This document shows positions 27,479 through 53,277 of a stretch of DNA of 53,277 bases, piece by piece. The stretch covers positions 1-53,277 of the IMG/VR virus record IMGVR_UViG_3300002053_000026. The stretch is one strand, 5' to 3'. A model generated the notes under the pieces. The model worked only from the letters and a program-made list of their open reading frames with translations. It did no database searches and was not told the DNA's origin. Positions within the stretch are counted from its first letter, which is position 1, and the number at the start of each line of letters is the position of its first letter. Made by a program: the position numbers and the translations under genes. The stretch comes from a virus (Duplodnaviria; Caudoviricetes).

Positions 27479-28164
27479 TTGTTTAATTCCTGGACAATGG
27501 ACCGCTCTAAGGATGGTGTCCAAATACCATCTATCAAACCAATTTTAATTGCTTGTTTTGGGGATATCCATGCTGTTTCGTCCATTAATTTAATCAACTG
27601 TTTCATTGTAATTTTAAGTCTTTTAGAAAGACTAACCAATTTTGTACGATAATCATTTAACAAATAAGTTGTCATTTTTTTGTGTTGTTCTATTGGTTCA
27701 GAAACATTTTGAATACTGATGGAATGCAACATTAATGATGAATTTGGAGTAGCATATCTATGTCCATTAGTTCCAAAAGCGGCAATGATAGCACCCATTG
27801 AATATCCATGCCCACGTACAATAGTATAAATTGGACATCCGCACGTTAACATTTGGTCAATTATAGCATAACCAGAAGCAAAACACCCACCATGGCTATG
27901 AATATATATATATACCGGTTGTGATTCGGTGGCTAGAAATTGCAAATAGCTGCATACGTGTGCTGACATTGTTTCATCAATTTCACCAACAATTAATATA
28001 CGACGTGTTCGTATCAAAAATTCTTCTACCATTTCGTCTAGTTGAATAGGTGTAAGTGTTTCTATATATGTTTCACGTCCTATATTGGGCTTACGACCAT
28101 TCCACTGTTGTTTTTTATTGATTTTCACATTTTTCTCCAAAAGGATGATGGCGTTTATAAACAT
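27475..28164 (-). CDS. clpP: ClpP-family protease
   Basis: YIHSHGG, AIIDQM, YSMGA (Ser), PNSSLMLH (His) and GLID; start uncertain. Confidence 0.85.
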   Translation of the reverse strand: MFINAIILLEKNVKINKKQQWNGRKPNIGRETYIETLTPIQLDEMVEEFLIRTRRILIVGEIDETMSAHVCSYLQFLATESQPVYIYIHSHGGCFASGYAIIDQMLTCGCPIYTIVRGHGYSMGAIIAAFGTNGHRYATPNSSLMLHSISIQNVSEPIEQHKKMTTYLLNDYRTKLVSLSKRLKITMKQLIKLMDETAWISPKQAIKIGLIDGIWTPSLERSIVQELNK

Positions 28165-29002
28165 CCATTAACATGTTATTATTAATCGCTAAATAATTTT
28201 GTGTTGTTGATAAATGCTGATGTCCTAGTAAAATTTGTATAAGTTCTAAATCTACGCCACGATTCATCAGTGACGTAGCACAACTTCTACGTAATGTATG
28301 AGCAGTAGTATGTTTAATATTTGCTCGACGAGAAAGGGACATAAGCATATCGCTAACAGTACGACGGGTAATCCTTTTATTATTTGATTGAACAAATAAT
28401 GCATTCGCATCAGATCGACGGCCATTATTTATGTAATCAATAATAGCTTTAATACATCTTGATGTAGTTGGAACTATCCGTTCACGCCTACCCTTACCTA
28501 TTATTCTTATTTCGCGTTTGTTGAAATTTACATTTTTGAGATTTAGACTGCATAACTCAGATACTCGTAAACCACTATCGTAAAGAGTCAGTATAATTGC
28601 CACATTACGGCGAACGTTAATTGCTCGCCATGTAGATATATCTTGTTCCAAAATATCCAAAAGAATATCAACATCTGAGGGATTAAGAGCATTCGGTGTT
28701 CCCCTTTCTATTCGAATTGAATTCATGATATTTAGAATATTGGGATCAAGATATTTAAGGCTAATGAGATGGTGACACAAACAACGAATTGACATATATT
28801 TTCTGCGTATTGTCGTAGATTTAAGTTTACGCGATTTTAAATAATCAATAAATATCTCGATTGACCTAGCCGTCACCTCTTGTGTCCCTAGGAATGTCAA
28901 TAATTCTTGTACGTCATAGACATATGACGATAATGTCTCTTTTGATAAACCAAGTTCAGTCTTAATATATATTTTAAAATCATCCATGAGAAATTGTTTC
29001 AT
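28115..29002 (-). CDS. XerC/XerD-like tyrosine recombinase
   Basis: SAM-like N-terminal domain, LYDSGLRVSEL, GKGRRER, HTLRRSCAT and LLGH..LSTTQNY. Confidence 0.9.
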   Translation of the reverse strand: MKQFLMDDFKIYIKTELGLSKETLSSYVYDVQELLTFLGTQEVTARSIEIFIDYLKSRKLKSTTIRRKYMSIRCLCHHLISLKYLDPNILNIMNSIRIERGTPNALNPSDVDILLDILEQDISTWRAINVRRNVAIILTLYDSGLRVSELCSLNLKNVNFNKREIRIIGKGRRERIVPTTSRCIKAIIDYINNGRRSDANALFVQSNNKRITRRTVSDMLMSLSRRANIKHTTAHTLRRSCATSLMNRGVDLELIQILLGHQHLSTTQNYLAINNNMLMDVYKRHHPFGEKCENQ

Positions 29003-29020
29003 GTCAATCCTTTCATTTTA

Positions 29021-29030
29021 TTGTACACCA
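29021..29030 (-). promoter_or_regulatory. Candidate phage promoter motif TGGTGTACAA
   Basis: Intergenic, upstream of an AAAGGA RBS of the recombinase gene; similar to 26618-26630. Confidence 0.3.
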
Positions 29031-29067
29031 AAGCTCAATTTATGTTCCGTAAATATTTTTATTATAT

Positions 29068-29895
29068 TCATTTATTATGATTAGATTCTACTCCTTTTGT
29101 GCCATCATCTAAATCAACAATATTTAATCCATGTGCGAATAATGGCGCTTTTTCTTGTAAAATACGACATACCTTTATTGCTAAGGCACGAATCTCAACA
29201 TCTGCCGCTGGATTGGCACGTAATTTAATCAAATGACGCAAAGCTCTGGCGTTCATACTAACCACCATTTTCGTTTCAGTAGCATTGGGCAATACCGATC
29301 TAGCAGCTTGTCTGGCTTTCTTGCGCCTTTCTAGTTTACTATCAATATTCTGGTACATATCCGAAAGTTTTTCTGTTAATATCTCATACAATTGTCGAGA
29401 TTTTTCGCAATGTTCAATCCATGTTCTATATGTATCCGGGTCAATTTTTGCAAGTTCTTGAATGGCCGGAGGAATGATAAAAGACACACTTGAAGAATCA
29501 CAGTAGCGCTGAGACAATTGTGAGTATGATGCAATCCTGTGACGAACCAATTCATGTGAACATGAACGAGAAATATTCCAAATAGCAAAATTAAACTGTG
29601 AGTGTTCTAAAACAGATGTGTGTCCAATGTCAATTAGATTCTTAATATGATCGCTGTGAGACCTCCCCGTGGCTTCTTCCCCATACTTAGGCCATGACTG
29701 ATAACACATCCTTCCAGCTAACTCAACCAACCATTCACCATCATCGTCACCAAAAGACATCATCGACTTAAGTTTATCGGTAAATTCTGGCCACGAATAA
29801 CCGTGATCATCAAGAAATTTCATTACCCCATCAATTTCAATGATTGGTTTACCAATCAACGCTACTTCTGGCTCAGTGATAAACTCACCCATCAA
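29068..29895 (-). CDS. thyX: FAD-dependent thymidylate synthase
   Basis: GH.SVLEH, SR..SHELVRHR..SYSQLSQRY, AR.VLP and N.R.L.H...LR. Confidence 0.95.
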   Translation of the reverse strand: MMGEFITEPEVALIGKPIIEIDGVMKFLDDHGYSWPEFTDKLKSMMSFGDDDGEWLVELAGRMCYQSWPKYGEEATGRSHSDHIKNLIDIGHTSVLEHSQFNFAIWNISRSCSHELVRHRIASYSQLSQRYCDSSSVSFIIPPAIQELAKIDPDTYRTWIEHCEKSRQLYEILTEKLSDMYQNIDSKLERRKKARQAARSVLPNATETKMVVSMNARALRHLIKLRANPAADVEIRALAIKVCRILQEKAPLFAHGLNIVDLDDGTKGVESNHNK

Positions 29896-43072: not shown

Positions 43073-44056
43073 TCAAGTCCATCGAATTTTAATAGGATGG
43101 GATACTGCTGCAATATCATTATAATCTACACATACATCCAAACAATTTTTAGCACAAATTGGATCAGCAATACTGTCATGTTCAAAAATCCATTGTAATC
43201 GTTCATTTCTCATATCTGGTCCAACTTCACCAATAGGATCGCCACCCTCTCGTAAATGGATAATACATGGGAAATGCCATTTACCGGCTACAGCCATATC
43301 GTCTAGTGCTAACCAACACTTACGACAGTTGCCTCCAAAAATTCCACGTACATTTCTACCAGCTTTCAAGTTCTCAATCCGGTACTTCAGGATCGGGTAC
43401 TTGTTCAATACCTCGTCTGGTAAATCGACCAGCTTGGTCAGAGCCTTGTTGTACTGTGCCGCTGGGATGACTCGGATATCCGAAGCCCCCAGGCTGTCCA
43501 CGAACAGCACAGCCTCAACACACTGGTCAACATTAGCCTCGGTGAAGACCATGCCAACGGTTACGTAGGTGATCTTGCTCAGGGTGCGGATAGACTCTAC
43601 AGTCTTCGCCCATGCACCCTTCACTCCACCAGTCATGTCCGTACCGACAGCGCAGCAGCCACTATCAAGACTGATAGAGAAGTCGTTAACACCCGCTCCG
43701 ATCAAAGCAAGATAGGTCTCAGGCTTTGCCGTACCATTGGTGGAGATTGCAATGCGCTCGACTCCACCTTCACGACAGCGATCAATCAACTTGCCCAGAC
43801 CCTTGTATAGAGTAGGCTCCCCACCGGAGAACCTGACGTTCTTTAGCCCTTGAGCAATCCAGAGGTTGACAGTTTTGAGCGCCTGTTTGAACGGCATATC
43901 TCCACGAATCTCCGGTCTTACACCACGGCAATACGGACACCGTAGGTTACAGCGATCCGTAAGAATCAACTCACACCGCTGCAACGGAGAGGTAGCGCTA
44001 GCGTTCAACGCACGCTTGTCAGATAGCGTGTAGAATCCAATGTCTTCAAGCTTCAT
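43073..44056 (-). CDS. Radical SAM enzyme with a C-terminal Cys-rich (SPASM/twitch-like) region
   Basis: CNLRCPYC, FSGGEPT, ISTNG and ISLD; C-terminal CW...FPC...C...C..C; AAAGGAGG RBS. Confidence 0.88.
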   Translation of the reverse strand: MKLEDIGFYTLSDKRALNASATSPLQRCELILTDRCNLRCPYCRGVRPEIRGDMPFKQALKTVNLWIAQGLKNVRFSGGEPTLYKGLGKLIDRCREGGVERIAISTNGTAKPETYLALIGAGVNDFSISLDSGCCAVGTDMTGGVKGAWAKTVESIRTLSKITYVTVGMVFTEANVDQCVEAVLFVDSLGASDIRVIPAAQYNKALTKLVDLPDEVLNKYPILKYRIENLKAGRNVRGIFGGNCRKCWLALDDMAVAGKWHFPCIIHLREGGDPIGEVGPDMRNERLQWIFEHDSIADPICAKNCLDVCVDYNDIAAVSHPIKIRWT

Positions 44057-44074
44057 GACAACCTCCTTTACTAC

Positions 44075-44149
44075 CGGGCTGGGTCGGACTCGAACTCACG
44101 ACCTGCGGGGTAGAAACCCGCTGTTCTTGATCCACTGAGCTACCAGCCC
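44075..44149 (-). tRNA. tRNA-Arg(TCT), with degenerate D and T stems
   Basis: GGGCTGG/CCAGCCC acceptor stem, GCGGG-TTTCTAC-CCCGC anticodon arm and GTTCGA loop. Confidence 0.75.
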
Positions 44150-44153
44150 TTAC

Positions 44154-44225
44154 TACCAGCGACAGGGCTCGAACCTGCATCTCCCGGTCCACAGCCGAGC
44201 GTTCTACCAGTTGAACTACACCAGC
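44154..44225 (-). tRNA. tRNA-His(GTG), with a weak acceptor stem (possibly a pseudo-tRNA)
   Basis: GTTC/GAAC D stem, CTCGG-CTGTGGA-CCGGG anticodon arm and GCAGG-TTCGAGC-CCTGT T arm; acceptor stem has four G:U pairs. Confidence 0.7.
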
Positions 44226-44230
44226 TCAAA

Positions 44231-44304
44231 TGGGCAGTGCAAGGCTTGAACCTGTGACCTCGTGTTTATAATACACGTGATCGTACCAACTGAGCTACCG
44301 GCCC
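44231..44304 (-). tRNA. tRNA with TAT anticodon (Ile-like), degenerate
   Basis: TAGCTCAGTTGG D region, CGTGT-ATTATAA-ACACG anticodon arm and GGTTCAAG; mismatches in the acceptor, D and T stems. Confidence 0.6.
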
Positions 44305-45347
44305 TCCATGACATTATTTTTAGGACGAATCTTTTTCATAATATATCTATCTAACCTATCCCAATGTCCATCATATAACATGAACATTGCAGCACGATGT
44401 TTCATATTAGCAACAGTGTTTGCAAATCTAGCTCTATCGGGGATATATTTAATTAAATCAAAATATTCTTGAATTTCACATTTGGTTAATTCATATTTAC
44501 CTTCAAGATTAGATGCTAAATCGGTAAGAGTTTCATGATAATCTACATCAACTATATCCCAAAGAAATGCAGGAACTTCTCCATTAACCATTTCTTTCCA
44601 AATGCCGAGAAGTGTTAAGTGCATAAGCATAGCATGACGACGAAAATAATCCTCACACTTGATTTTTACTCTCAAGCCATTGTTAAATCGAATAACAAAT
44701 CCTTCCAATTTATCACCAGATGCAGTTTTAATTTGTCCACGACAATATCCTAACCAATTCTGATCATATGAATCAATTAAAGTAAATCCAAATTCTTTAT
44801 TCCATTCTCTAACTTGTCCCCAACTGTATTCTTCACCAGTATGACGATTATATGCAGCAAGCAAAACCAAATCTCGACGGTCACCATAATTAACCACAAT
44901 ATGTGTAATTGGACAAATAATCTCAAATAACAATGTTACTTCATCTGGTAAAGTGCTTAGATCGTATCGTTTCAACCAAGCAGTAGCCCAAACAGCACCA
45001 TCACTTCTGAAAGACCCTCTGGTAGCAATACGATGTTCACCATTAACTCGATAAAGAATTCCTAACCAACCGTCTTCCTTCTTAAAAATACGAAAACCAT
45101 CTTTCCATGGAAGATTGCATTCTTGTGTATCGTGTCGTTGATTCATATTGAAAAATTTGGGAAAAGGTTGCGATACTACTTCTCCTGTCTTACGATTTAA
45201 AATTATGCCTCTGCTATTTAAAGTAATATTATCCCAAGTCTTACATCCATCAGTATAACTATATACACGAAGATCATCTAAATCATCGCATCGAAGCAAA
45301 CCATCCTCCACCAATTTATCTCTGGCTTCAATAAAATCAAATTTCAT
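44295..45347 (-). CDS. T4 Rnl1-like RNA ligase
   Basis: SRGII, PFPKFFN, KEDG (motif I), ATRGSF, FEII, EGFVI and RVKIK. Confidence 0.9.
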   Translation of the reverse strand: MKFDFIEARDKLVEDGLLRCDDLDDLRVYSYTDGCKTWDNITLNSRGIILNRKTGEVVSQPFPKFFNMNQRHDTQECNLPWKDGFRIFKKEDGWLGILYRVNGEHRIATRGSFRSDGAVWATAWLKRYDLSTLPDEVTLLFEIICPITHIVVNYGDRRDLVLLAAYNRHTGEEYSWGQVREWNKEFGFTLIDSYDQNWLGYCRGQIKTASGDKLEGFVIRFNNGLRVKIKCEDYFRRHAMLMHLTLLGIWKEMVNGEVPAFLWDIVDVDYHETLTDLASNLEGKYELTKCEIQEYFDLIKYIPDRARFANTVANMKHRAAMFMLYDGHWDRLDRYIMKKIRPKNNVMEGR

Positions 45348-45702: not shown

Positions 45703-45906
45703 TTATTCAGGTCCCCATTCATAAGAATGGAGAACTTCTCCATCTCTAGTGATCATAACGTATCCACTTCCATTTGCGTTTACGTGCGTTTTAGAGAATG
45801 TTCGCCACGTATTTGCTTCCGCAGTAGAAGCCTTGCTTCCTAGGCGATGAGTCTCTTTTGATCTGTTGTTGTCATGACCGAATGCTTTTGCTATTGTATT
45901 CGCCAT
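45703..45906 (-). CDS. Hypothetical protein
   Basis: ORF with AGGAG RBS. Confidence 0.6.
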   Translation of the reverse strand: MANTIAKAFGHDNNRSKETHRLGSKASTAEANTWRTFSKTHVNANGSGYVMITRDGEVLHSYEWGPE

Positions 45907-45917
45907 TATTTTACTCC

Positions 45918-46331
45918 TTATCTGTATCCAGTTATTGTTATACGCTGTCTGCCGTTTGACAATTTTTCTCGGTTAATTGTTCTGTCACGTTGGATTTGAT
46001 CTCTAGATAGTTTATGGAATACATAGTTTGTTTTTAATTGACCCAACCATTGATCACTATATTTTCGGGCGTCGTATTCAGAGATGATAGCATTGTAATG
46101 GCCATTTTCATCTTTGGCAAAGCCAATGTCATTAGAGGCTTTTCCGACATGTTTGCGCCTTATAATGATGTTGGCCTTTTCATTGCGCATATCACCCCTA
46201 TATCCATATAGGCCGACTGGATCGTCGTAAATTTCTATCTGATCGGTAGTCCAATTTCCTGTTTCTACTAAAGCGCAAATTAATGACGCGCTGTCTTTAA
46301 AGATAGTCTTTACTTCGCAAAATCTGCTCAT
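45918..46331 (-). CDS. DUF1257 / Ycf35-like protein
   Basis: MS.F..VKT...D...L..AL, L.GY.GD.R...A.I.IRR, NDIGF....G.Y..I...YD and L..L...Y. Confidence 0.8.
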   Translation of the reverse strand: MSRFCEVKTIFKDSASLICALVETGNWTTDQIEIYDDPVGLYGYRGDMRNEKANIIIRRKHVGKASNDIGFAKDENGHYNAIISEYDARKYSDQWLGQLKTNYVFHKLSRDQIQRDRTINREKLSNGRQRITITGYR

Positions 46332-46489
46332 TTTAGTTGGTCCTCACCATTTTTTATAAACGAAAGAATAGCCTCAAGTTCACCGCATTCACCGCAAGTC
46401 AGTTTGTGAACACAATTAACACATACGTCTTCGAAGTCTGGATGTGTATCATTTGATAGTTATGTGCTACAGAATCTACATAACTTCAT
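46328..46489 (-). pseudogene. Small Cys-rich gene with a premature TAA (46460-46462)
   Basis: MKLCRFCST*LSNDTHPDFEDVCVNCVHKLTCGEC...; ATGA-coupled at both ends. Confidence 0.55.
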
Positions 46490-46908
46490 GATAAAACCTT
46501 TCTTGCCCTATCGAATGGGTTCATTTTGTTTATGGTAGCCTGATTATCATTGATTTCACGACAATTGTTTGGTTCTTTCCGGGAATCTTCGCCATTGTTG
46601 AGTCCATAATTATCACATTTTGCATTATTAATGCTTTCATCATATGTAATATCAAAAGCAATATCATCATTTTGGATGTCGGTGATTATGTGAACCGGTT
46701 TGAGTGCGACAACAAATTTTGGTAAATCCCTAGATCTATCAAAATTCGCGTTAATACGGTTTAATTCACCCAGGACTCCTCCGTCAATGCCAGTATCGAA
46801 TGTAGTAAAAATTTTATCTTCTAATTCAATCGTTCCAAAACCATTATTATATCCAATTGCGTAAGCTACCCCGTCGTGATAACATTCGCCAAGTTTAATT
46901 CTACACAT
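46486..46908 (-). CDS. Hypothetical protein
   Basis: ORF with GGAG RBS. Confidence 0.55.
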   Translation of the reverse strand: MCRIKLGECYHDGVAYAIGYNNGFGTIELEDKIFTTFDTGIDGGVLGELNRINANFDRSRDLPKFVVALKPVHIITDIQNDDIAFDITYDESINNAKCDNYGLNNGEDSRKEPNNCREINDNQATINKMNPFDRARKVLS

Positions 46909-46922
46909 ATATCTTCTCCATA

Positions 46923-47906
46923 CTACAAAATTACTTTTCTCTGAATTTCATCAATAAATGAATTTTCGCTACTTCCGTCGGTATCAGCTTTCAGCCTGAT
47001 AGATTCTAATACTTTTGTTATGCCATTCTTAACATTGGCGGATTCAAAATCCTTTGGACCAATTCCGGAGTTAAGAAAGTTGGTTTTAAATTCATCTAAC
47101 ATTTTCTCTACTTCATTGTCTTCAAAGATATTCATTTCTTTAAATCGATCAACGTATTTTCGAAAGCACCCTATAGATCTGGGGGTTAATTTTTTACTCT
47201 CTGTTTCTTCTCCAAATGGTTTCCCATTAATGCGAGCAGTCATTAGGTCGCAGAATTTGACAGTTTCTTGTCTCATTGATGTTACATACTCCTTCACAAA
47301 CCTACTTACTTCGTCCTGCATTTGCTTACGTAGTTCTTGCTCTTTCTCATTTATAATTTTTTGCTCAGTGATTATTTGGGTTGCACTAGTTTCTTCTATC
47401 GAGTTTAGTCCTGCTATTCTAAATGTAAACCACTGGAAAGCAAACTTTCCCCTTAATGTTTGTGGGTCACGCGGATAATGACCTTTTAAACATTTTTCCC
47501 AAAATTCTGGAAATTGTCCTTTGACTGTGCTTACTAACTTATCGAATCTAACTATAAGACTATCTATTCGCTGAAAGAATTCATCTTTTAACTCTTGTAA
47601 TTGTTGTTCAACACTAGGAAGCATTTTTATTGGTACAAAGTGAGAATTCGCTATGCCAAAAGGTACGGACCATTTCTCTAAAATTTTTCTAGCTCTCTGT
47701 TCTATTTGTGTGATTGCGGCCAGTTCTTCTTTTGGTATCATTAATTTTCTGCCCAGATTTACCAAATCTACTGGCAATGCATCTGGGTCATATCCAACCT
47801 TTAGAAGGTCAGCCCGTGTTAGCATTTTTCTACCACCCCATCGGCTTACTCTCAAATTGATAAGACAGCCGACTTCAAAAAGATTGATTGTGTTTTCGCT
47901 TTCCAT
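46923..47906 (-). CDS. DUF3150-like helical protein
   Basis: L.VS.W.G.K.L...DL......LP.DLV.LG.K.....E.L, FVP and YP....LR.KF.F.W motifs; next to the AAA gene. Confidence 0.7.
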   Translation of the reverse strand: MESENTINLFEVGCLINLRVSRWGGRKMLTRADLLKVGYDPDALPVDLVNLGRKLMIPKEELAAITQIEQRARKILEKWSVPFGIANSHFVPIKMLPSVEQQLQELKDEFFQRIDSLIVRFDKLVSTVKGQFPEFWEKCLKGHYPRDPQTLRGKFAFQWFTFRIAGLNSIEETSATQIITEQKIINEKEQELRKQMQDEVSRFVKEYVTSMRQETVKFCDLMTARINGKPFGEETESKKLTPRSIGCFRKYVDRFKEMNIFEDNEVEKMLDEFKTNFLNSGIGPKDFESANVKNGITKVLESIRLKADTDGSSENSFIDEIQRKVIL

Positions 47907-47918
47907 AATAATCTCCTA

Positions 47919-49478
47919 TTAATTTAATGTTACCTTTCTCTCGTTCGTGCGAGAAGATGAAATATTTTTTGTCAGATTGGCTGGTTTTGCATGTTCAGCA
48001 CACCATTGTCTTATTATTGACAAGCGCTCACCATCAGTTTTACAAAGTGGAATTATTTCGGAAATGGATGTCGTGAGATGTTCGGTTGATAATTCTGTTT
48101 TTTCTGAGAAAGCCAATTTTAGACTAAGTTTAACGATTTGTTCAATATCAGCACCGGTGTACCCACTCGTATTTTTGGCTAAATCTGGAATATTAAACTT
48201 ACTTGGGTTGCGATTTCTTTTGCTTAGATGAATAGAGAAGATTTCATATCGCTCCTGCTCATTTGGTAAATCCAGGCCATATATCTCATCAAACCGACCT
48301 TTTCTGGTTAGTTCTGGTGGTAAAGATTGTATTTGGTTTGCGGTTGCTATTGTATATATTGGTGATTTTCTGTCGTTTAACCATTTGATAAATGTACCGA
48401 ACACGCGACGGGATGAACCACCATCCATATCCCCAGTGCCACCAAAGCCCTTTTCAATTTCATCGACCTGTAAGACACAAGGAGCCATGCTTTCTAACAT
48501 TCTAAGTGCTTCTCTCATGTGGTTCTCAGATTCGCCCACATATTTATCCATCAAATTTCCAACGTCCATAGCTATTAATGGCAATTTTAGTTCAGATGCT
48601 ATCGCTGTTGATAGAAGTGTTTTTCCGCACCCAGGAATTCCGACCAACATTAATCCTCTTGGAAATTCAATGCCAAATTCACGTGCTTCGTTGGTGAAGC
48701 ATGGTTGATCTAATTTAACATGACGTTTAATTGCTTCATATCCGCCAACGTTATTTAAGCCACCATCTTGAGGTTCGACATATGTCAATAATCCTGATGA
48801 TCGGATTACTCCAGCTTTTTCCTCAATAATGGTCTTTACGGCGTCGAAATTTAATTCTTTATGTTTCCTTAATGTTAATGCGAGTCTATCTGTGATTTGT
48901 GATTGTGTCATACCCCGACATGCATCGATAATTTTTGGTATTATTTTATTGTCTAATTCGATTGATTGGTTAACCCCAGAACATACAAATTTAATTCTAT
49001 CATGTATGTGTTCATTGTCTGGCAATGCGAAATCTATACGTGTAATATCGTGTAAAAGCGGTTTTGGTACTCTAAATTCTGGACCAACGAAAATAATGGT
49101 CTGATATACCGAAGAAGCTATTCGTCTAATATCATCAAGGATACCTATTACTATATCATGATTTGGATATGTTTCATGCCACAAATATTCACCAAAATCG
49201 CGCAATATAAATATGGTTTCTTGATCAAATTCGAAAATAGCTTCTAGTTGTTGTTCTGGCTGTGCTGTCCGATTTGGTGCCTTATCTGGCTGACGACCAT
49301 TTATATCAGTCCATCCTCGCGAAATGGACCAAATATAAACTTTGCGACCGGTCTCGCCGATATCTGGTGTAATTTTTATTATGTCGGCTATTGCGCGATC
49401 TTTTTCAAAAGTATCGACATACAACAAAGTGTGACCAGAACATATGTAGTCTGTTATTGTTTTTTGAAAATTGTTCAT
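47919..49478 (-). CDS. Ycf46-like AAA+ ATPase (degenerate first AAA domain, intact second)
   Basis: FILRDF remnant, VGG, PRGLMLVGIPGCGKT, KYVGESE, PCVLQVDEIEKGF and ATAN....LPPEL.RKGRFDE. Confidence 0.9.
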   Translation of the reverse strand: MNNFQKTITDYICSGHTLLYVDTFEKDRAIADIIKITPDIGETGRKVYIWSISRGWTDINGRQPDKAPNRTAQPEQQLEAIFEFDQETIFILRDFGEYLWHETYPNHDIVIGILDDIRRIASSVYQTIIFVGPEFRVPKPLLHDITRIDFALPDNEHIHDRIKFVCSGVNQSIELDNKIIPKIIDACRGMTQSQITDRLALTLRKHKELNFDAVKTIIEEKAGVIRSSGLLTYVEPQDGGLNNVGGYEAIKRHVKLDQPCFTNEAREFGIEFPRGLMLVGIPGCGKTLLSTAIASELKLPLIAMDVGNLMDKYVGESENHMREALRMLESMAPCVLQVDEIEKGFGGTGDMDGGSSRRVFGTFIKWLNDRKSPIYTIATANQIQSLPPELTRKGRFDEIYGLDLPNEQERYEIFSIHLSKRNRNPSKFNIPDLAKNTSGYTGADIEQIVKLSLKLAFSEKTELSTEHLTTSISEIIPLCKTDGERLSIIRQWCAEHAKPANLTKNISSSRTNERKVTLN

Positions 49479-49663
49479 TGTTGAGGTTCCCTTTAATTGG
49501 AATGGATATTGGTACGGCTCTATTGAATTAATTCACGTAATGATATATTGATATAGGCATGAATATCGTTATTTGATTCGTAATAAATTTTTAAGGTGCC
49601 TAATCATTAAAAGTGTATCCTGTGAAAATTGAAATTTAATGATGTTGGACATGAGTTATTTTT

Positions 49664-49879
49664 CTATTCTTCAAGAATATTTTGTGCTTCAGACAATTCA
49701 TGTAGTGTTGCTGTTAGCTGAAATTTTAAATCAGTGATCAATAATGATATGTGCTCTAATAGTACTTCTAATTCGTCATCGTGTTTTGATGATTGTTTGC
49801 GGCTAATTAATCCATTCGGTTCTATATCACATCTATTTAAAATTTCTATTAATTTAGATGTAATTTGTTTGTTTGTCAT
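49664..49879 (-). CDS. Hypothetical protein
   Basis: ORF. Confidence 0.5.
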   Translation of the reverse strand: MTNKQITSKLIEILNRCDIEPNGLISRKQSSKHDDELEVLLEHISLLITDLKFQLTATLHELSEAQNILEE

Positions 49880-49932
49880 AATTTATTATATGTTTATCAC
49901 CAAGGCTATTTGATAATTTTAGTTCTTTATGT

Positions 49933-50199
49933 TTATCGGCCAACAATTTTTGGATCTATGTTTGTCCCAGAGACATCGGCGCCATATTGCACGTCACCGC
50001 AATCCGCAAGGACATAGCCAAGTTTGCGAAGAATGGTAAATCCCTTTCTGCGGTCATCTGTGTTTTTTAGTTGATTTGCTAATGCTCCTATAATTTCCTT
50101 GCGAATGACAACAATTGTTTCACCATTTACGACATCTATCTTGTCAATTCGGAACGCTGGATTATTGACGACCGTGTTCTGTGCTTGCGACATTTTCAT
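49933..50199 (-). CDS. Hypothetical protein
   Basis: ORF with AGGAG RBS. Confidence 0.55.
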   Translation of the reverse strand: MKMSQAQNTVVNNPAFRIDKIDVVNGETIVVIRKEIIGALANQLKNTDDRRKGFTILRKLGYVLADCGDVQYGADVSGTNIDPKIVGR

Positions 50200-50282
50200 T
50201 GCTCCTGTTTAAAATAAATTTATACCCATTAACATAACCGATCTTTAGCTAACAGAATTATACATTTAACCTTCTAGTTTGT

Positions 50283-50489
50283 TCAAATTCTTTCGGACAT
50301 GCTGACAATATTTTTGCGAGAAATTACTTCAGTGTGATATTGTTTTTGTATTTCGCCTGTTTCTGAAAATTTTGAAGAACAGGTGTAATATGCAATAGTA
50401 ATATTTTTTGCATTTATAGAGATAATTTTACATGTGGAATAAACAGCGTCTTTGGTCATAAGAACGACTGTACTACCATCGTGGATCAT
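50283..50489 (-). CDS. Hypothetical protein
   Basis: ORF with GGAG RBS. Confidence 0.5.
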   Translation of the reverse strand: MIHDGSTVVLMTKDAVYSTCKIISINAKNITIAYYTCSSKFSETGEIQKQYHTEVISRKNIVSMSERI

Positions 50490-50510
50490 TGATTGATTCT
50501 CCGATTTTAT

Positions 50511-51467
50511 TTAACTTTTGTTAAGATAACGATTACCTACGACTTTTAATTGGACGCGACCTATCTCGTGGTGGGTGCGTTCGTGTACTGGTTTTATTAC
50601 GACGCCTTCGCGGTAATGATGCGCTCCGGGGTAGATACTATCCCCTTCTGCAAACGCTAGTATTTTTTCTTTATCAAAAGGACCACGATAAACCAAAGGA
50701 ACCCACGGTAATGGAGCACCAATTTTATGAGCTTCATCGTAGTTAAGCCATTGACTTCCTTTTAGAATATCAAAAGCAGCAAAATAAATTTCATCTTTTG
50801 TAGCACCATATTTTAAATTTTGGACTTGACCGAATACTTCGCCATATACTGCCATGCCCTGGTTTTGTCTACACCAAGCCTCAAGCACATCATAATTATT
50901 AAGAGCTTTCCACCAAAGATTATTTGAATCTTGTTTTTTCCAGTGTCGTCTTGAACCAGCGTACATTATATCATTTACACATACATAGCGGCTCGATGTT
51001 CCGTGCGTTTTTTCAGTCACAATTACTTCTTCATCATCAGTAAAATATCTAGAATATTTGCGAAAATTCAATACATCATAGACTGGGAAAAATCCTATGG
51101 GGGGAGATATGTTTTCTCCACCGGTACTGAAATGTCCACGTATTTCTGGTTCATAATGGACAATGCCTAATTGTTTCATGCAATCATCTCCAAGCTGAGT
51201 GCCAGACGGAGCAGGAATCAATAGGCCCATAGACCATTCACCACGAAATTTGCAAGCTTTGATGCGTTTGTGTTTACCTAGGAATTCGAATTCTTTGGTT
51301 TCTGGAACTACACTGTCTGGTGGAATATAAACAGCCAAATCACCATCATTCCATTCATTTGTTCGAACGACGCATTGAAAATCGTCAATTTTAACAACAC
51401 TCAGTGTATCCGCATTAGGGTGTGGTTCTAATTTTATTTTGACAACATCGCATGTATGATCTGACAC
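50511..51467 (-). CDS. RNA ligase, DRB0094 family
   Basis: N-terminal HPNADTL...VYIPPDS and S.GLL; EKTHG (motif I), YGEVFG, FDI, REGVVIK and LK. Confidence 0.88.
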   Translation of the reverse strand: MSDHTCDVVKIKLEPHPNADTLSVVKIDDFQCVVRTNEWNDGDLAVYIPPDSVVPETKEFEFLGKHKRIKACKFRGEWSMGLLIPAPSGTQLGDDCMKQLGIVHYEPEIRGHFSTGGENISPPIGFFPVYDVLNFRKYSRYFTDDEEVIVTEKTHGTSSRYVCVNDIMYAGSRRHWKKQDSNNLWWKALNNYDVLEAWCRQNQGMAVYGEVFGQVQNLKYGATKDEIYFAAFDILKGSQWLNYDEAHKIGAPLPWVPLVYRGPFDKEKILAFAEGDSIYPGAHHYREGVVIKPVHERTHHEIGRVQLKVVGNRYLNKS

Positions 51468-51667
51468 AATTTATCTCCATTTTCTCTATATAGTTGTCGG
51501 TACGGTACTCAGTTCTTTCGCTTCACTTGACCACAAACTAGTGATTTGAATCGTGTCTAATGCTTCACTAATAAGGATAGACGGTTTTATATCGTGAATT
51601 CGTTTGGCAGGTATATTGGTTATTGTCTGGAGACAATAGACCGCCTTTGCATATATGTTTCACTGCC

Positions 51668-52324
51668 CTATTTTGTTTCTATTTCATTAGTCAGTAAATT
51701 GAAATTAATTTCTTTGTCAAGAAGACATCCACGTAACCATTTGGTAAATTGAGATATTCTTATTCCAGCAGATATATTAGCGCAATATATAGTTGTTTTG
51801 GCTGTACATGAACCATTGTATGCTTCCGACTGAGGGAATAATGTTGTAAGGTAATGTTCACGAGAAGCTTCATCATAAACAGTGAATATTCTCATATATT
51901 CGGCGCTCATACGCCCATCTATAAATAAATCTGCATATTTTTGTGTTGCGTTGAATACAGTTTTTCTTGTGCTGATTTTATCTACACAACAGAATAATAT
52001 ACCACCAACAAAATAAAGTGGACTGAATTTTCTGTAAATAGCGGTAACTTCAGTCGTAGAATTTATAGCCATACAAACATCTTTTACAGCATCGACTTTT
52101 GGACGGCCCAAATCGGCTTCATAAAACCCCTGAGCAGCCAAATTTTCTACTTCAACTGTGTCAAAATCTATAATTGTTATGTTAGGTACACCGATCGCTG
52201 CTAGCTGAAGTGCTACCTGACGACCACCTGCACCTACCCCAACGACTGTTGCTCTGGTTTTAGATATTTTTTCAAACGGAACCAAATCCCTTTGTCTAAT
52301 ATCTCGATTGATTAAATTTTCCAT
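51668..52324 (-). CDS. ThiF/E1-like adenylating enzyme
   Basis: R..RQ, VVGVGAGG, DFD.VE..NL..Q, K, CVD....R, DGRM and a candidate catalytic Cys in SCTAK. Confidence 0.9.
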   Translation of the reverse strand: MENLINRDIRQRDLVPFEKISKTRATVVGVGAGGRQVALQLAAIGVPNITIIDFDTVEVENLAAQGFYEADLGRPKVDAVKDVCMAINSTTEVTAIYRKFSPLYFVGGILFCCVDKISTRKTVFNATQKYADLFIDGRMSAEYMRIFTVYDEASREHYLTTLFPQSEAYNGSCTAKTTIYCANISAGIRISQFTKWLRGCLLDKEINFNLLTNEIETK

Positions 52325-52494
52325 GTGGATTTTCCTCTATTATTAACAAATGCTGTTTCCATACACAAATTGCAATTCATACCCTTTGACAGTTGGTCTA
52401 GTCGCCATTTTGATTACATTGATTTATTAAACGGATAACACATGCTCTAGAAATAGACGATATACCCCACTGAGTATACCAATAGCTTTGTACA

Positions 52495-53277
52495 TTATTC
52501 CACTGGAGATTCGCGTTCATTCCAATATTTCTCTGCCCATTTGACGATTAATGATGGAAGATATTTTAACTTGCCATTTTTATTTGTCATGCGATCCTTG
52601 GCTATTTCACCAATATCATTGTACCATTGGTTATTAATTGGGTTATACATATACCATTCTTCGCTATTTTTATCCCAGAATTCAACGTCACAATCCATAT
52701 TCCAAAAACAATCTAGATTTTTCAATTCATCATCTATATCTGAGATATTGTATTTTTCTAATTCAATTGCCATACTATTTGCCATATTTATGGTGTATAA
52801 TTGTCTAACTTTTAATTTGTATTCATTTTCCCAGTTTTTATGTTCTGAGCCCCGAAATTCCTGACTAAAATCGACAGTTACTTTGAGTTGTTTGGTTATA
52901 CCTGGGCCTACATTCACCTTTAGGCGACAGTACGTTTCCCCATTCTTTGCAACAATTAACATGATTGCCCAATCCGGTGCACCAAAGGCTCTCTCAAAAT
53001 TTTCTTCATCGGCCGGGGACGGATGTGGAGAATTACCTGGGTGGGTGTGTGCTAAAATCCTGACCGACTGCCACATTGCTAAACCAGTATCAAGCATTAA
53101 ATCTTGATATTCGGCCAGATCGTTCGTATCTAGATCGAACGATGCGATCGTACACTTTTCTTTGATAAGGTTAAAATCTGTGACCAACAATGGGTCATTA
53201 GTTGCTGTGACACAGAATCCTGCCACTTCTGTATTTCCTTTGTCTCGCATCCATATAAGTTTACTCCATGCGTATGG
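52495..53277 (-). CDS. JAB/MPN (JAMM) metallo-isopeptidase, 5' end outside the window
   Basis: Frame is open to the window edge (PYAWSKLIWMRD..TEV.GF); JAMM motif HTHPG.S..PS..D. Confidence 0.88.
   Translation of the reverse strand, partial: PYAWSKLIWMRDKGNTEVAGFCVTATNDPLLVTDFNLIKEKCTIASFDLDTNDLAEYQDLMLDTGLAMWQSVRILAHTHPGNSPHPSPADEENFERAFGAPDWAIMLIVAKNGETYCRLKVNVGPGITKQLKVTVDFSQEFRGSEHKNWENEYKLKVRQLYTINMANSMAIELEKYNISDIDDELKNLDCFWNMDCDVEFWDKNSEEWYMYNPINNQWYNDIGEIAKDRMTNKNGKLKYLPSLIVKWAEKYWNERESPVE

What the first reader, a model, noticed from the sequence alone, without database searches (positions are those of the whole stretch)
47919..53277. Candidate phage-encoded ubiquitin-like conjugation system coupled to an AAA+ ATPase
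Seen: an adjacent JAMM isopeptidase and ThiF/E1 enzyme with a candidate catalytic Cys, no thiamine or molybdopterin genes, and about 2 kb downstream a Ycf46-like AAA+ with its DUF3150/DUF1257/DUF2997 partners. Known: E1 plus JAB (with E2 and Ubl) form bacterial conjugation systems, including the antiviral CBASS Cap2/Cap3 and Bil systems. Recalled but unverified: a similar E1-JAB-AAA-DUF1257-DUF2997 neighbourhood occurs in Planctomycetota elements. Inference: the phage tags proteins with a Ubl and remodels or degrades them through the ATPase (possibly with its ClpP), or uses JAB to strip host antiviral conjugates. Ubl and E2 genes are predicted just beyond the right edge.
Basis: partly seen in the sequence, partly recalled or inferred. 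Interest (0 to 1): 0.85.

Follow-up and report, generated by a model that had tools for sequence, protein, structure and literature searches.

The report
Phage ubiquitin-like tagging operon, truncated
The right end of this phage fragment carries the last two genes (a tag-removing peptidase and a tag-activating enzyme) of a four-gene ubiquitin-like protein-tagging system whose first two genes lie beyond the fragment's edge, and an unfoldase-type ATPase module often, but not always, travels with it.

Summary
At the window's right edge a JAB/JAMM peptidase gene, cut by the contig end, is followed by a 218-aa ThiF/E1 gene. An AAA+/DUF3150/DUF1257 module starts 2.2 kb downstream. DUF2997 could not be confirmed.

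In 19 of 23 IMG/VR loci and 46 of 49 GTDB loci with enough upstream DNA, the order is Ubl, E2-like, JAB, E1.
- The Ubl is 75-76 aa up to an invariant Gly, followed by a 0-10 aa tail. Its model has a ubiquitin fold.
- The E2-like protein has HPH-x6/7-C-x-G in 87 of 87 sequences and a C-terminal CxxC array.

The system resembles Bil but is not a member. Its E1 is a single domain and its E2 belongs to no known sequence family.

Coupling to the AAA+ is partly supported. The ATPase lies within 10 kb in 27 of 50 classifiable loci, in two different gene orders. One order is a contiguous cluster in Planctomycetota chromosomes. Each module also occurs alone in complete genomes. Degradation via ClpP and anti-defence roles are untested.

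Verdict: a new variant of a known kind. The biochemistry is inferred, not shown.

The parts
52495..53277 (-). JAB/JAMM metallopeptidase gene, third gene of the Ubl-E2-JAB-E1 operon. Its 5' end is cut off by the contig edge, losing about 30-40 codons.
   Evidence: Pfam Prok-JAB E 9.7e-5. The best NCBIfam hit is Cap3, weak at E 0.0018. E17/H77/H79/S87/D90 are invariant in 10 of 10 homologues, and the window's first residues align about 30-40 residues into the full-length relatives.
51668..52324 (-). Minimal E1 (ThiF/MoeB-type adenylating enzyme, 218 aa), fourth gene of the operon.
   Evidence: PF00899 E 5.5e-27. The nearest solved relative is MoeB, E 2.1e-14. The adenylation residues and C173 are conserved across 51 sequences. 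The predicted E1 dimer:Ubl complex scores 0.81 against 0.41 for the best control.
50511..51467 (-). RNA ligase (PHA02142 OB domain plus RNA_ligase). A variable insert between the two modules, not part of either.
   Evidence: Pfam 5.6e-26 and 6.8e-17, phrog_968 3.6e-40. Found between E1 and the AAA+ in few relatives.
49933..50199 (-). Conserved 88-aa ORF that precedes the AAA+ gene in this phage clade. Function unknown.
   Evidence: Homologue found in 23 of 24 AAA-centred loci of the clade.
49664..49879 (-). Conserved 71-aa ORF directly upstream of the AAA+ gene. Function unknown.
   Evidence: Homologue found in 22 of 24 AAA-centred loci of the clade.
47919..49478 (-). Classical-clade AAA+ ATPase (519 aa) with a 230-aa N-terminal domain. 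A recurrent but dispensable neighbour of the Ubl operon.
   Evidence: PF00004 3.3e-29, AAA_lid_3 5e-7, phrog_8638 7e-121. Sub-cut-off NCBIfam hits to PAN, CDC48 and FtsH. The Atlas names the N-domain PF30482. Co-occurrence data.
46923..47906 (-). DUF3150 protein, constant partner of the AAA+ gene.
   Evidence: PF11348 E 3.2e-20. Follows the AAA+ gene in 24 of 24 clade loci. A divergent homologue follows it in the Planctomycetia arrangement.
46486..46908 (-). 140-aa ORF between DUF3150 and DUF1257. Variable, unknown.
   Evidence: No Pfam, PHROG, PADLOC or NCBIfam hit. Homologue present in only some relatives.
45918..46331 (-). DUF1257 protein of the AAA+ module.
   Evidence: PF06868 E 1.5e-7. 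Found in 24 of 24 clade loci.
45703..45906 (-). 67-aa ORF in the position where related phages carry DUF2997. Identity not confirmed.
   Evidence: No Pfam hit. No BLASTP similarity to the RHph_I4 DUF2997 protein. Homologue detected in 3 of 24 clade loci by phmmer.

Best explanation
The JAB and E1 genes at the window's right edge are the 3' half of a four-gene operon, Ubl, E2-like, JAB, E1, that the contig end cuts through. They encode a ubiquitin-like protein-conjugation cascade carried by a clade of roughly 140-180 kb phages and, in a sister form, by Planctomycetota chromosomes.

Inferred mechanism:
1. A 75-76-residue beta-grasp Ubl is made with a short tail after an invariant glycine.
2. The JAB metallopeptidase trims the tail, and probably also reverses conjugation.
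3. The 218-aa E1, a MoeB/ThiF-type homodimer, adenylates the terminal Gly and takes it onto Cys173.
4. The Ubl passes to the invariant Cys of the E2-like protein (HPH-x6-C). Its C-terminal stack of about 10 CxxC zinc ribbons likely serves as a built-in substrate-recognition or E3-like part.
5. The Ubl is then attached to target proteins, which are unknown.

The AAA+/DUF3150 module downstream is a frequent but dispensable companion. It may act on the conjugates as an unfoldase or segregase. That step is inference from gene neighbourhood only.

Shown here: gene content, conserved residues, predicted folds, predicted E1:Ubl docking, and co-occurrence. Inferred: every chemical step, the targets and the biological role.
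For: 1. JAB and E1 are intact in their catalytic residues.
2. The operon is complete in relatives. All four genes are present in 19 of 23 IMG/VR and 46 of 49 GTDB E1-centred loci with at least 3.5 kb upstream. Four of the complete relative genomes are 165-181 kb, two of them with terminal repeats. The window shares 58 of 86 ORFs with one of them.
3. Ubl. The Gly is invariant, with tails of 0-10 aa, in 19 of 19 aligned sequences. The L138 copy passes Pfam's ThiS cut-off at 24.7 against 22.5 bits. The AF2 model has pLDDT 84 and beta-beta-alpha-beta-beta-beta order. All 50 listed Foldseek PDB matches are ubiquitin, ubiquitin-like proteins (SUMO, NEDD8, bacterial and archaeal Ubls) or engineered ubiquitin variants, the best at E 2.3e-4 with prob 1.0.
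4. E2-like protein.
- HPH-x6/7-C-x-G is present in 87 of 87 distinct sequences.
- The AF2 model has pLDDT 92.5, with a helix, a beta-meander, the HPH-Cys loop and then two helices.
- Weak Foldseek hits include UBE2L3, UbcH5b/c, UbcH7, UBE2H and TSG101-UEV, with E 0.036-0.28 and TM 0.31-0.49 normalised to the target.
- Atlas structural neighbours outside its own family are UQ_con/RWD clusters at TM 0.56-0.57.
- It sits where BilB sits in BilABCD (passages read).
5. E1:Ubl complex. The score is 0.81 against 0.41 for the best control. That mark was reached by 58 of 80 solved complexes and 2 of 110 mismatched pairs. The runs agree in at least 97% of contacts and the partner's pLDDT is at least 87. 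Ubl residues 69-75 contact E1 residues 114-117, 138-145 and 163-175. This may pass through likeness to solved MoeB/ThiF-type complexes.
6. AAA+ link.
- 27 of 50 classifiable loci have the ATPase within 10 kb: 16 downstream of E1 and 11 upstream of the Ubl gene, the latter as a contiguous co-directional cluster.
- On the E1 tree the association appears in at least four places.
- The two sets of ATPases are not sisters on the AAA tree.
Against: - The window itself holds neither the Ubl nor the E2 gene, because the contig ends inside JAB. Their presence in this phage is by analogy.
- The E2 fold is not statistically established. No Foldseek PDB match reaches E<=1e-3. None of 85 family members hits any Pfam E2 family at E<=1. 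PADLOC and NCBIfam give nothing. The profile search against PDB sequences gives nothing relevant. The VIA second look was swamped by the N-terminal coiled coil.
- By sequence the Ubl is ThiS-like and the E1 is nearest MoeB, ThiF, PaaA and MccB. This also fits sulfur transfer or peptide modification.
- AAA+ coupling is weak in several respects. 23 of 50 classifiable loci lack the ATPase. Three complete Ubl-carrying phage records lack it. Four Planctomycetota genomes with the operon have no DUF3150-like gene anywhere. Five records of the window's AAA+ clade (one complete with terminal repeats, the others 82-96% complete) and two Rhizobium-phage-type records, carry the ATPase module without E1. 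In the window's own clade, variable genes spanning 2-8 kb separate the modules.
- No experiment of any kind exists.
Confidence: 0.7

Rival explanations
1. The Ubl operon and the AAA+/DUF3150/DUF1257 module are two independent accessory modules. They lie near each other only because both sit in the same variable early region of related phages and mobile elements. On this reading the system is Ubl-E2-JAB-E1 alone.
For: - Each module is complete without the other. No AAA+ match was found in three complete Ubl-carrying phage records (G006, G007, G009).
- The DUF3150-like profile hits 0 of 4 Planctomycetota genomes that carry the operon, while the control genome is found.
- E1 is absent from 5 of 5 AAA-carrying records of the window's AAA+ clade and from 2 of 2 Rhizobium-phage-type records, with 3 of 3 positive controls found.
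- None of 16 distant AAA-centred IMG/VR loci has any Ubl-system gene within 10 kb.
- In the GenBank phage collection, E1 matches fall in Flavobacterium, Bacteroides/crAss-like and uncultured phages. At least 119 of 136 AAA matches fall in other genera.
- In the window's clade the gap between modules is 2-8 kb and is filled with variable genes.
Against: - The linkage recurs in two different gene orders. One is a tight co-directional run, AAA, DUF3150-like, two small genes, Ubl, E2, JAB, E1, in 11 loci from several Planctomycetota lineages.
- One such locus is chromosomal and lies beside Tn7-like genes.
- The association appears at four or more places on the E1 tree.
- The ATPases of the two arrangements are not sisters.
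Confidence: 0.35
2. The Ubl/E1/JAB trio is a sulfur-carrier pathway of the ThiS-ThiF, MoaD-MoeB, CysO-MoeZ-Mec or TtuB-TtuC type. It would make a thio-modified tRNA, nucleotide or cofactor for the phage. The 'E2-like' protein would be a zinc-rich accessory factor rather than a conjugating enzyme.
For: - The Ubl matches Pfam ThiS (weaker).
- The top E1 hits are ThiF and MoeB models, all far below their cut-offs, and the MoeB and ThiF structures.
- The window region is rich in RNA-related genes: two RNA ligases, three tRNAs and a radical-SAM enzyme.
- The E2 fold is not proven.
Against: - No ThiG above cut-off in 0 of 5 records and no PP-loop ATP_bind_3 in 0 of 5 records, counting the window and four complete relatives.
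- The E1 has no rhodanese domain. It is 218 aa with only PF00899.
- The four-gene set stays together across phages and Planctomycetota chromosomes with unrelated neighbours.
- The E2-like protein keeps an invariant Cys in an HPH-x6-C loop in 87 of 87 sequences.
- The Ubl carries variable tails after the Gly, as Type II BilA precursors do.
- MoaE and CysM were not searched for.
Confidence: 0.08
3. The biochemistry is as in the best explanation, but the operon is a defence cargo. It would be a Bil-like system that phages and mobile elements carry to exclude competing phages by tagging their virion proteins, rather than a tool for the phage's own infection cycle.
For: - The gene order is the same as BilABCD, with the same glycine-plus-tail Ubl and a JAB (passages read).
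- The Planctomycetota copies lie beside mobile or defence-like genes: Ku plus TnsA/TnsB/TniB/TniQ in L113, and an RT-RNaseH in L145.
- Some genomes hold two copies, for example L144/L149 and L115/L116.
- The window phage carries an integrase.
Against: - No PADLOC model recognises the E2-like protein, and the E1 and JAB are hit only weakly or partially.
- The operon is kept in nearly all members of a large lytic-looking phage clade, next to replication and nucleotide-metabolism genes. That pattern suits a role in the phage's own cycle.
- No phenotype has been tested.
Confidence: 0.3
4. Counter-defence: the phage JAB strips host antiviral conjugates (Bil Ubl or CBASS cGAS conjugates), and the E1 sequesters or mis-activates host Ubls.
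For: The weak best named hits of the JAB are CBASS Cap3 models (NCBIfam E 0.0018, PADLOC JAB E 1.4e-4).
Against: - In relatives the JAB and E1 always come with their own Ubl and E2-like genes.
- The E1 is predicted to dock that Ubl, scoring 0.81 against 0.41 for the best control, with the caveats given elsewhere in this report.
- The same operon sits in bacterial chromosomes.
Confidence: 0.05

Closest known systems
Type II (and Type I) BilABCD antiphage ubiquitination-like operons (passages read: 10.1101/2023.09.04.556158; PMC10557695; PMC11601596)
   Same: Four separate genes in the same order, Ubl, E2, JAB peptidase, E1. A single beta-grasp Ubl has a universally conserved Gly followed by up to about nine non-conserved residues, which the JAB removes. 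A thioester-type Cys is expected on E1 and E2.
   Different: [quoted passage not shown] Here the E1 is 218 aa with one adenylation domain.
- BilB has a catalytic Cys with a conserved His after it. Here an HPH motif precedes the Cys, and the protein carries a long N-terminal coiled coil and a C-terminal CxxC array.
- No PADLOC model matches the E2-like protein.
- The system is found in phage genomes and is often linked to an AAA+/DUF3150 pair.
Archaeal SAMP / UbaA / HvJAMM1 system (search listings and abstract starts only; details recalled)
   Same: A small ThiS/MoaD-like Ubl ending in Gly, a small MoeB-type E1, and a JAMM peptidase that reverses conjugation. It is linked in the literature to AAA+ and proteasome-mediated turnover.
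   Different: SAMPylation has no E2 (recalled). The present operon always carries the E2-like gene. The NCBIfam SAMP-E1 model hits the window E1 only weakly, at 38.7 bits against a cut-off of 450.
Caldiarchaeum-type and prokaryotic E1/E2/RING/Rpn11 operons (search listing of PMC5654768 and PMC3082918; the Burroughs-Iyer-Aravind 2011 RING paper is recalled, not seen)
   Same: A Ubl, an E1, a classical-looking E2 and zinc-finger E3-like elements are encoded together with a JAMM peptidase. The Ubl model also matches Caldiarchaeum ubiquitin (6fnn_C, 2mqj).
   Different: There the E2 and the small RING E3 are separate proteins recognisable by sequence. Here the zinc-rich part is fused to the E2-like domain and is a long run of CxxC ribbons. 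Its fold hits are to LIM and PHD fingers only, and the E2 has no sequence-family match.
Type II CBASS Cap2/Cap3 (passages in PMC10557695; abstract starts)
   Same: E1, E2 and JAB activities together. The weak best named hits of the window JAB are Cap3 models, and of the E1 are Cap2 'E1-E2' models.
   Different: Cap2 is an E2-E1 fusion and conjugates the CD-NTase itself, with no Ubl gene. Here the proteins are separate and a dedicated Ubl exists. PADLOC Cap2 models match only E1 residues ~2-102.
Bub (6E/DUF6527) operons (passages read, PMC11601596)
   Same: Ubl, E1, E2 and peptidase genes in mobile or defence contexts. The BubCD structure appears among distant E1 matches at E 1.3e-8.
   Different: Bub uses fused proteins, oxyester (Tyr/Ser) intermediates and a DUF6527 serine protease. 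Here Cys is conserved on both the E1 (49 of 51) and the E2-like protein (87 of 87), and no DUF6527 was seen.

Membership tests
E1 / ThiF-MoeB adenylating superfamily (PF00899) | Rossmann-type adenylation domain with a GxGxxG loop, a ribose-binding Asp, a Lys, a Mg-binding Asp and an Arg | tested here: met
   PF00899 at 94.9 bits against a cut-off of 28.1. Across 51 sequences, G29, G31, G34, D53, K76 and R138 are in 51 of 51 and D115 in 50 of 51.
E1 / ThiF-MoeB adenylating superfamily (PF00899) | Cys in the crossover-loop region able to take the Ubl as a thioester or acyl-disulfide | tested here: inconclusive
   C173 is conserved in 49 of 51 sequences. Neighbouring residues 171-172 and 175 touch the Ubl tail in the predicted complex. 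Its equivalence to MoeB C187 and ThiF C184 rests on my recalled alignment. No chemistry was tested.
JAMM/MPN+ (JAB) metallopeptidases | E ... HxH x7 S xx D zinc site | tested here: met
   E17, H77, H79, S87 and D90 are invariant in 10 of 10 sequences. The Pfam Prok-JAB score for the window copy is below the cut-off (22.7 against 25). The full-length L007 copy scores 25.2.
ThiS/MoaD/ubiquitin-like beta-grasp modifiers | Beta-grasp fold of about 70-100 aa ending in a conserved Gly that is the site of activation | tested here: met
   Tested in relatives only, since the window has no such gene. PF02597 scores 24.7 against 22.5 bits in L138. The AF2 model has pLDDT 84. All 50 listed Foldseek matches are ubiquitin, ubiquitin-like proteins or engineered ubiquitin variants. 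G75 is invariant in 19 of 19 sequences.
UBC/E2 (incl. Prok-E2, UEV/RWD superfold) | Sequence membership in a known E2 family (UQ_con, Prok-E2_A-E, UFC1) | tested here: not met
   None of 85 family members hits any such Pfam model at E<=1. There are no PADLOC or NCBIfam hits.
UBC/E2 (incl. Prok-E2, UEV/RWD superfold) | UBC fold with a catalytic Cys a few residues after an HPN-like motif (signature recalled) | tested here: inconclusive
   HPH-x6/7-C-x-G is present in 87 of 87 sequences. The model topology fits. Foldseek hits to E2 and UEV proteins are only E 0.036-0.28. The Atlas UQ_con/RWD clusters at TM 0.56-0.57 are 'under the bar'. The VIA look was uninformative.
BilABCD (Type I/II) | Operon of Ubl, E2, JAB and E1 in that order | tested here: met
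   Seen in relatives: 19 of 23 IMG/VR and 46 of 49 GTDB loci. The window holds only JAB and E1.
BilABCD (Type I/II) | E1 (BilD) with IAD-AAD-CYS architecture | tested here: not met
   The E1 is 215-241 aa in the 120 listed homologues, apart from one of 191 and one of 274. It has a single PF00899 domain.
BilABCD (Type I/II) | E2 (BilB) with a catalytic Cys followed by a conserved His | tested here: not met
   The invariant residues are HPH before the Cys. No invariant His follows it in 87 sequences.
BilABCD (Type I/II) | Protects cells against phage | not testable with these tools
Type II CBASS Cap2/Cap3 | E2-E1 fusion protein plus a CD-NTase substrate | tested here: not met
   The E1 and E2-like proteins are separate. 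PADLOC Cap2 models align only to E1 residues ~2-102. A CD-NTase was not specifically searched for.
Sulfur-carrier pathways (thiamine, tRNA thiolation, molybdopterin) | A partner sulfur-insertion enzyme (ThiG, TtuA/NcsA-type PP-loop ATPase, MoaE) in the genome | tested here: not met
   ThiG above cut-off in 0 of 5 records and ATP_bind_3 in 0 of 5, counting the window and four complete relatives. MoaE and CysM were not tested.
Membership of Ycf46 proper. | tested here: inconclusive
   PF00004 scores 102 bits and AAA_lid_3 29.6 bits, both above their cut-offs. The N-domain equals PF30482 in the Atlas, with cyanobacterial clusters among its nearest. No model named Ycf46 was available to test.

The most novel reading that the evidence does not exclude
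The Ubl-E2-JAB-E1 operon and the AAA+/DUF3150 pair form one pathway. It would be a compact, mobile 'tag-and-unfold' machine, a prokaryotic-virus counterpart of ubiquitin plus Cdc48 or the proteasome ATPases. Proteins tagged through the zinc-rich E2 would be recognised and remodelled or extracted by the ATPase, with DUF3150 as adaptor. Phages would use it to rewire host or virion proteins. The syntenic copy inside a record titled as a Heimdallarchaeota chromosome, with matching GC, leaves open that some of these viruses infect Asgard archaea.
Probability: 0.22. Interest if true: 0.9.

Novelty: new variant of a known kind. Interest (0 to 1): 0.7.

Why it matters
Complete ubiquitin-like conjugation cascades in prokaryotes have so far been described as bacterial antiphage systems (Bil, Type II CBASS, Bub). 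Here the same logic is carried by large phages themselves and by Planctomycetota mobile regions.
- The E1 is stripped down to 218 aa.
- The E2-like family is unrecognised by sequence. It is large, with 3,806 cluster representatives at E<=1e-3, and fused to a zinc-ribbon array.

If the chemistry is confirmed, three things follow:
- It gives a minimal, tractable E1-E2(-E3) system.
- It opens the question of what a virus of prokaryotes tags.
- Through the recurrent AAA+/DUF3150 neighbour, it makes the old question of how Ubl tagging became coupled to AAA+ unfoldases directly testable outside eukaryotes and archaea.

Five library searches found no paper describing a phage-encoded Ubl-E2-JAB-E1 operon. 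Two searches found no functional study of DUF1257, DUF2997 or DUF3150. The library lacks most subscription journals and supplements were closed, so the system may be listed somewhere I could not see.

Tried and rejected
- Reading beyond 53277 is impossible. The held genome is this contig only, and it has no terminal repeat.
- The single-protein IMG/VR scans gave almost nothing. E1 gave 3 distant loci and JAB gave none. The E1 alignment was needed.
- I looked for a conserved small ORF between JAB and E1 as a Ubl candidate and rejected it. The two genes usually abut or overlap, and the occasional inserts are unrelated to each other.
- Prok_Ub (PF14454) is absent from five complete relatives.
- A word-index search with the E2-like domain found only 6 proteins.
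- The E2 domain profile against PDB sequences gave only a chance hit to adenylosuccinate lyase at E 0.29.
- Foldseek against BFVD matched uncharacterised viral proteins and Cys-rich domains only.
- The VIA second look was dominated by the coiled coil at residues 22-111.
- The Pfam DUF3150 model failed on the Planctomycetia homologues, even in the positive control. I therefore used my own alignment, A8.
- crAss-like and FpV4-type phages carry a ThiF gene after two ORFs of about 420 aa. My Ubl and E2-domain profiles did not hit them at E<=0.01. I leave them out of the family.
- The window's DNA polymerase was not found in the record holding L072.
- ClpP as a partner of the ATPase has no support beyond its presence 20 kb away.

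Rows dropped before counts:
- L114 was left out of the table because its E1 hit lay on the opposite strand.
- 52 of 102 rows were too short to classify.
- L011/L012 and L013/L014 are near-duplicates and were both counted.
- Several AAA-centred loci come from the same contigs as E1-centred loci.

The trees are FastTree trees with midpoint roots. Their support values were not examined.

Full report
WHAT IS IN THE WINDOW

The window is a single 53,277-bp contig and is all that is held of its genome. It has no terminal repeat, and 81 of 82 ORFs (at least 70 aa) kept in a first pass lie on the minus strand. GC is about 0.33-0.38 over most of the window, with a 0.43 peak at 42-44 kb.

PHROG matches show the replication and nucleotide-metabolism region of a large tailed phage. 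They include DNA polymerase, a DnaB-type helicase, exonucleases, ribonucleotide reductase, thymidylate synthase and a tyrosine integrase.

Reading right to left on the coding strand, the flagged stretch holds:
- a JAB gene whose frame runs open into the contig end (52495-53277);
- a 218-aa ThiF/E1 gene (51668-52324);
- a PHA02142-type RNA ligase (50511-51467);
- three small ORFs;
- a 519-aa AAA+ gene (47919-49478).

To the left, outside the finding's coordinates, lie:
- DUF3150 (46923-47906);
- a 140-aa ORF;
- DUF1257 (45918-46331);
- a 67-aa ORF;
- a T4 Rnl1-like RNA ligase;
- three tRNAs;
- a radical-SAM gene.

The JAB active-site residues are invariant in 10 of 10 homologues, and the window copy lacks about 30-40 N-terminal residues. 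The E1 keeps its nucleotide-binding and catalytic residues, and Cys173 is conserved in 49 of 51 diverse sequences.

WHAT LIES BEYOND THE EDGE

The E1 belongs to a tight family of 215-241-aa proteins. There are 4,963 matches at E<=1e-3, and the listed ones are 56-74% identical. Many sit on contigs of 110-180 kb.

An alignment-based scan of IMG/VR gave 23 loci. Four of the records behind them are complete by CheckV at 165-181 kb, two with terminal repeats. The window shares 58 of 86 ORFs with one of them.

In these relatives JAB is always preceded by a 380-465-aa protein with no Pfam, PADLOC or NCBIfam match. That protein is preceded in turn by a small ORF. Two weak ThiS hits in complete relatives pointed to that small ORF.

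The small ORF has these properties:
- It runs 75-76 residues to an invariant glycine, followed by 0-10 variable residues. In one phage the tail is a fused extra domain.
- The Gimesia copy passes Pfam's ThiS threshold.
- Its AlphaFold model (pLDDT 84) has beta-grasp order.
- All 50 listed PDB matches are ubiquitin, ubiquitin-like proteins (SUMO, NEDD8, bacterial and archaeal Ubls) or engineered ubiquitin variants.

With profiles of both genes, all four genes are present in 19 of 23 IMG/VR loci and 46 of 49 GTDB loci that have at least 3.5 kb upstream of E1. It cannot be read in this contig.

THE E2-LIKE PROTEIN

Its central domain defines a large family. A full HMMER pass over 1.84 billion representatives gave 3,806 hits at E<=1e-3 and 1,637 at E<=1e-10.

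All 87 distinct copies in my loci carry HPH-x6/7-C-x-G. The C-terminal half holds a median of 10 CxxC pairs, ranging from 0 to 21.

The model (pLDDT 92.5) shows:
- an N-terminal coiled coil;
- a helix, a beta-meander, the HPH-Cys loop and two helices;
- a stack of zinc-ribbon-like hairpins.

From recall, the motif and its spacing resemble the HPN-x7-Cys signature of classical E2s.

Structural searches agree in direction but not in strength:
- Foldseek lists UBE2L3, UbcH5b/c, UbcH7, UBE2H and TSG101-UEV among its best PDB rows, at E 0.036-0.28. LIM and PHD fingers match the tail.
- The ESM Atlas lists UQ_con/RWD clusters at TM 0.56-0.57 as the first neighbours outside the family.
- No known E2 sequence family matches any of 85 members.

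I therefore call the protein E2-like with about 0.8 confidence and record sequence membership as not met.

DOES THE E1 TAKE THIS UBL?

I predicted a complex of two copies of the window's E1 with the L007 Ubl cut at Gly75.
- It scored 0.81, against 0.41 for the best of three controls.
- That mark was reached by 58 of 80 solved complexes and 2 of 110 mismatched pairs.
- The runs agree in at least 97% of contacts, and the partner's pLDDT is at least 87.
- The Ubl tail (residues 69-75) lies against E1 residues 114-117, 138-145 and 163-175, that is, the Mg-Asp, the Arg and the Cys173 region.

MoeB- and ThiF-type E1s are solved, and their carrier complexes are known from recall. The pass may therefore reflect likeness rather than prove binding.

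IS IT A SULFUR-CARRIER PATHWAY INSTEAD?

The Ubl and E1 are nearest ThiS and to ThiF/MoeB by sequence. Several points count against a sulfur-carrier role:
- The window and four complete relatives hold no ThiG above cut-off and no PP-loop ATPase of the TtuA/NcsA/TilS family.
- The E1 has no rhodanese domain.
- The operon keeps an E2-like protein with an invariant Cys.
- The four genes stay together in quite different surroundings.

MoaE and CysM were not tested. I give this rival 0.08.

THE AAA+ QUESTION

My first results spoke against coupling:
- Cultured phages with the ATPase module, for example Rhizobium phage RHph_I4 with AAA, a hypothetical gene, DUF1257 and DUF2997, have no E1.
- Three complete Ubl-carrying phage records have no such ATPase.
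- Even within the window's AAA+ clade, five records carry the ATPase module without E1. One is complete with terminal repeats, the others are 82-96% complete. Positive controls were found.
- None of 16 distant AAA-centred loci has any Ubl-system gene nearby.

The scan of one genome per prokaryotic species changed the picture. Of 110 E1 relatives, 80 loci were kept. Most records are titled Planctomycetota lineages (Phycisphaerae, Planctomycetaceae, Pirellulales, Gemmatales, Gimesia, Planctomicrobium), with a few titled otherwise or unclassified.

In 11 of them a homologous AAA+ and a divergent DUF3150-like gene lie upstream of the Ubl gene, on the same strand. Two conserved small genes lie in between. 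Together these make a contiguous run, AAA, DUF3150-like, p80, p67', Ubl, E2, JAB, E1. An example is L138 4791-10672.

Over all E1-centred loci that can be classified:
- 16 have the ATPase downstream, which is the window's arrangement;
- 11 have it upstream;
- 23 have none within at least 9 kb on both sides;
- 52 of the 102 rows are too short to say.

On an E1 tree the association appears in the window's clade, in a Planctomycetia clade, and in two single loci nested among ATPase-free lineages. On an AAA tree the two sets of ATPases are not sisters. Four Planctomycetota genomes with the operon have no DUF3150-like gene anywhere, while the control genome was found.

My reading is that the Ubl cascade is self-sufficient. 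The ATPase/DUF3150 pair is an add-on that has been linked to it more than once. This is suggestive of a functional tie but falls short of showing one. I put the odds that they work together at roughly even where both are present. The stronger 'one machine' reading gets 0.22.

CONTEXT IN CELLS

In the Planctomicrobium chromosome the E1 gene is followed by Ku and by TnsA-, TnsB-, TniB- and TniQ-like genes. Another locus carries an RT-RNaseH gene nearby. These surroundings look mobile or defence-like, which keeps a Bil-like defence role open (0.3). The operon's near-universal presence in a large phage clade, next to replication genes, fits a role in the phage's own cycle equally well.

COMPARISON WITH KNOWN SYSTEMS

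The gene order and the glycine-plus-tail Ubl match BilABCD, especially Type II (passages read). Two defining Bil features are not met:
- The tandem-domain E1 with a mobile Cys domain.
- The BilB-type E2 with a His after the Cys.

Cap2/Cap3 (an E2-E1 fusion with no Ubl) and Bub (fusions, oxyester chemistry, DUF6527) fit worse. The small E1, ThiS-like Ubl and JAMM recall archaeal SAMPylation, which lacks an E2 (recalled). The E2 with zinc fingers recalls Caldiarchaeum-type operons (abstracts only).

I therefore class this as a new variant of a known kind. It works like a Ubl conjugation cascade and is a member of none of the named operon families.

LITERATURE

Searches for phage-encoded E1/E2/JAB/Ubl systems returned the bacterial and archaeal work but no description of this operon. 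Searches for DUF1257, DUF2997 and DUF3150 returned no functional study of those domains. Supplementary tables of the Bil and Bub papers, which were closed, could list related operons.

VERDICT

- The Ubl/E2 prediction is supported through relatives.
- The mechanism is a plausible thioester cascade, inferred and not shown.
- The AAA+ link is facultative and unproven.
- The ClpP and anti-defence ideas are unsupported.

Interest is 0.7.

Noticed in passing
window 43073-45347 and 50511-51467: The Ubl and AAA modules are flanked by an RNA-related set on the minus strand. It comprises a T4 Rnl1-like RNA ligase (44295-45347), a PHA02142-type RNA ligase (50511-51467), three tRNA genes (Arg-TCT, His-GTG, Ile-TAT at 44075-44304) and a radical-SAM enzyme (43073-44056). 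This may be a tRNA repair or modification kit.
   Followed up: no
window 27475-29895: A ClpP-family protease gene (27475-28164; Pfam CLP_protease 2e-34, with PHROG hits to head-maturation proteases) sits beside a tyrosine integrase (28115-29002) and a thymidylate synthase. It is inside the replication region rather than a structural module.
   Followed up: partly
L072 = G022:C1:152719-173363; G022:C1:1-320000: A syntenic relative of the window lies inside a 4.94-Mb record titled as a Heimdallarchaeota chromosome. Its E1 is 65% identical, the module order is the same, and further window genes are shared. In the first 320 kb, phage-like ORFs form two patches at about 48-100 kb and 150-178 kb. 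They are separated by about 50 kb without phage matches, and GC is 0.31-0.38 throughout, like the window. This could be a provirus remnant, a mis-join or mis-binning, and I could not tell which. The window's DNA polymerase was not found there.
   Followed up: partly
L113 10718-17418; L145 17472-19433: In a complete Planctomicrobium chromosome the eight-gene AAA...E1 cluster is followed directly by Ku and by TnsA-, TnsB(Mu/rve)-, TniB- and TniQ-like genes, which are Tn7-like. In a Pirellulaceae MAG a reverse transcriptase-RNase H gene lies 7 kb away.
   Followed up: partly
L009 6873-7349 vs L010 7105-7362 and 7368-7715: In one complete relative the Ubl is fused, directly after its conserved Gly, to an ~80-aa domain that is a separate downstream gene in another relative. 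JAB cleavage would release both parts.
   Followed up: no
L001 (bajarodcaudo virus 1), L002 (Flavobacterium phage FpV4), L004: crAss-like and FpV4-type phages carry a distant ThiF/E1 (about 29-33% identical) inside their replication module. It is preceded by two conserved hypothetical proteins of about 400-435 aa. My Ubl and E2-domain profiles did not hit these, so it may be a different E1-based system.
   Followed up: partly
L022 2801-10741, L023 2407-9445: In two high-GC viral contigs the JAB protein is 574-662 aa and the E2-like protein 579-590 aa, with long extra regions. Two large ORFs of 404-510 aa precede the Ubl gene. Neither the extra regions nor those ORFs were analysed.
   Followed up: no
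L088-type loci: L110-L145, between the DUF3150-like gene and the Ubl gene: Two small proteins are conserved in the Planctomycetia arrangement and have no Pfam match. One is about 80 aa and the other about 65-70 aa. They take the place that DUF1257 and the 67-aa ORF hold in the phage arrangement.
   Followed up: partly
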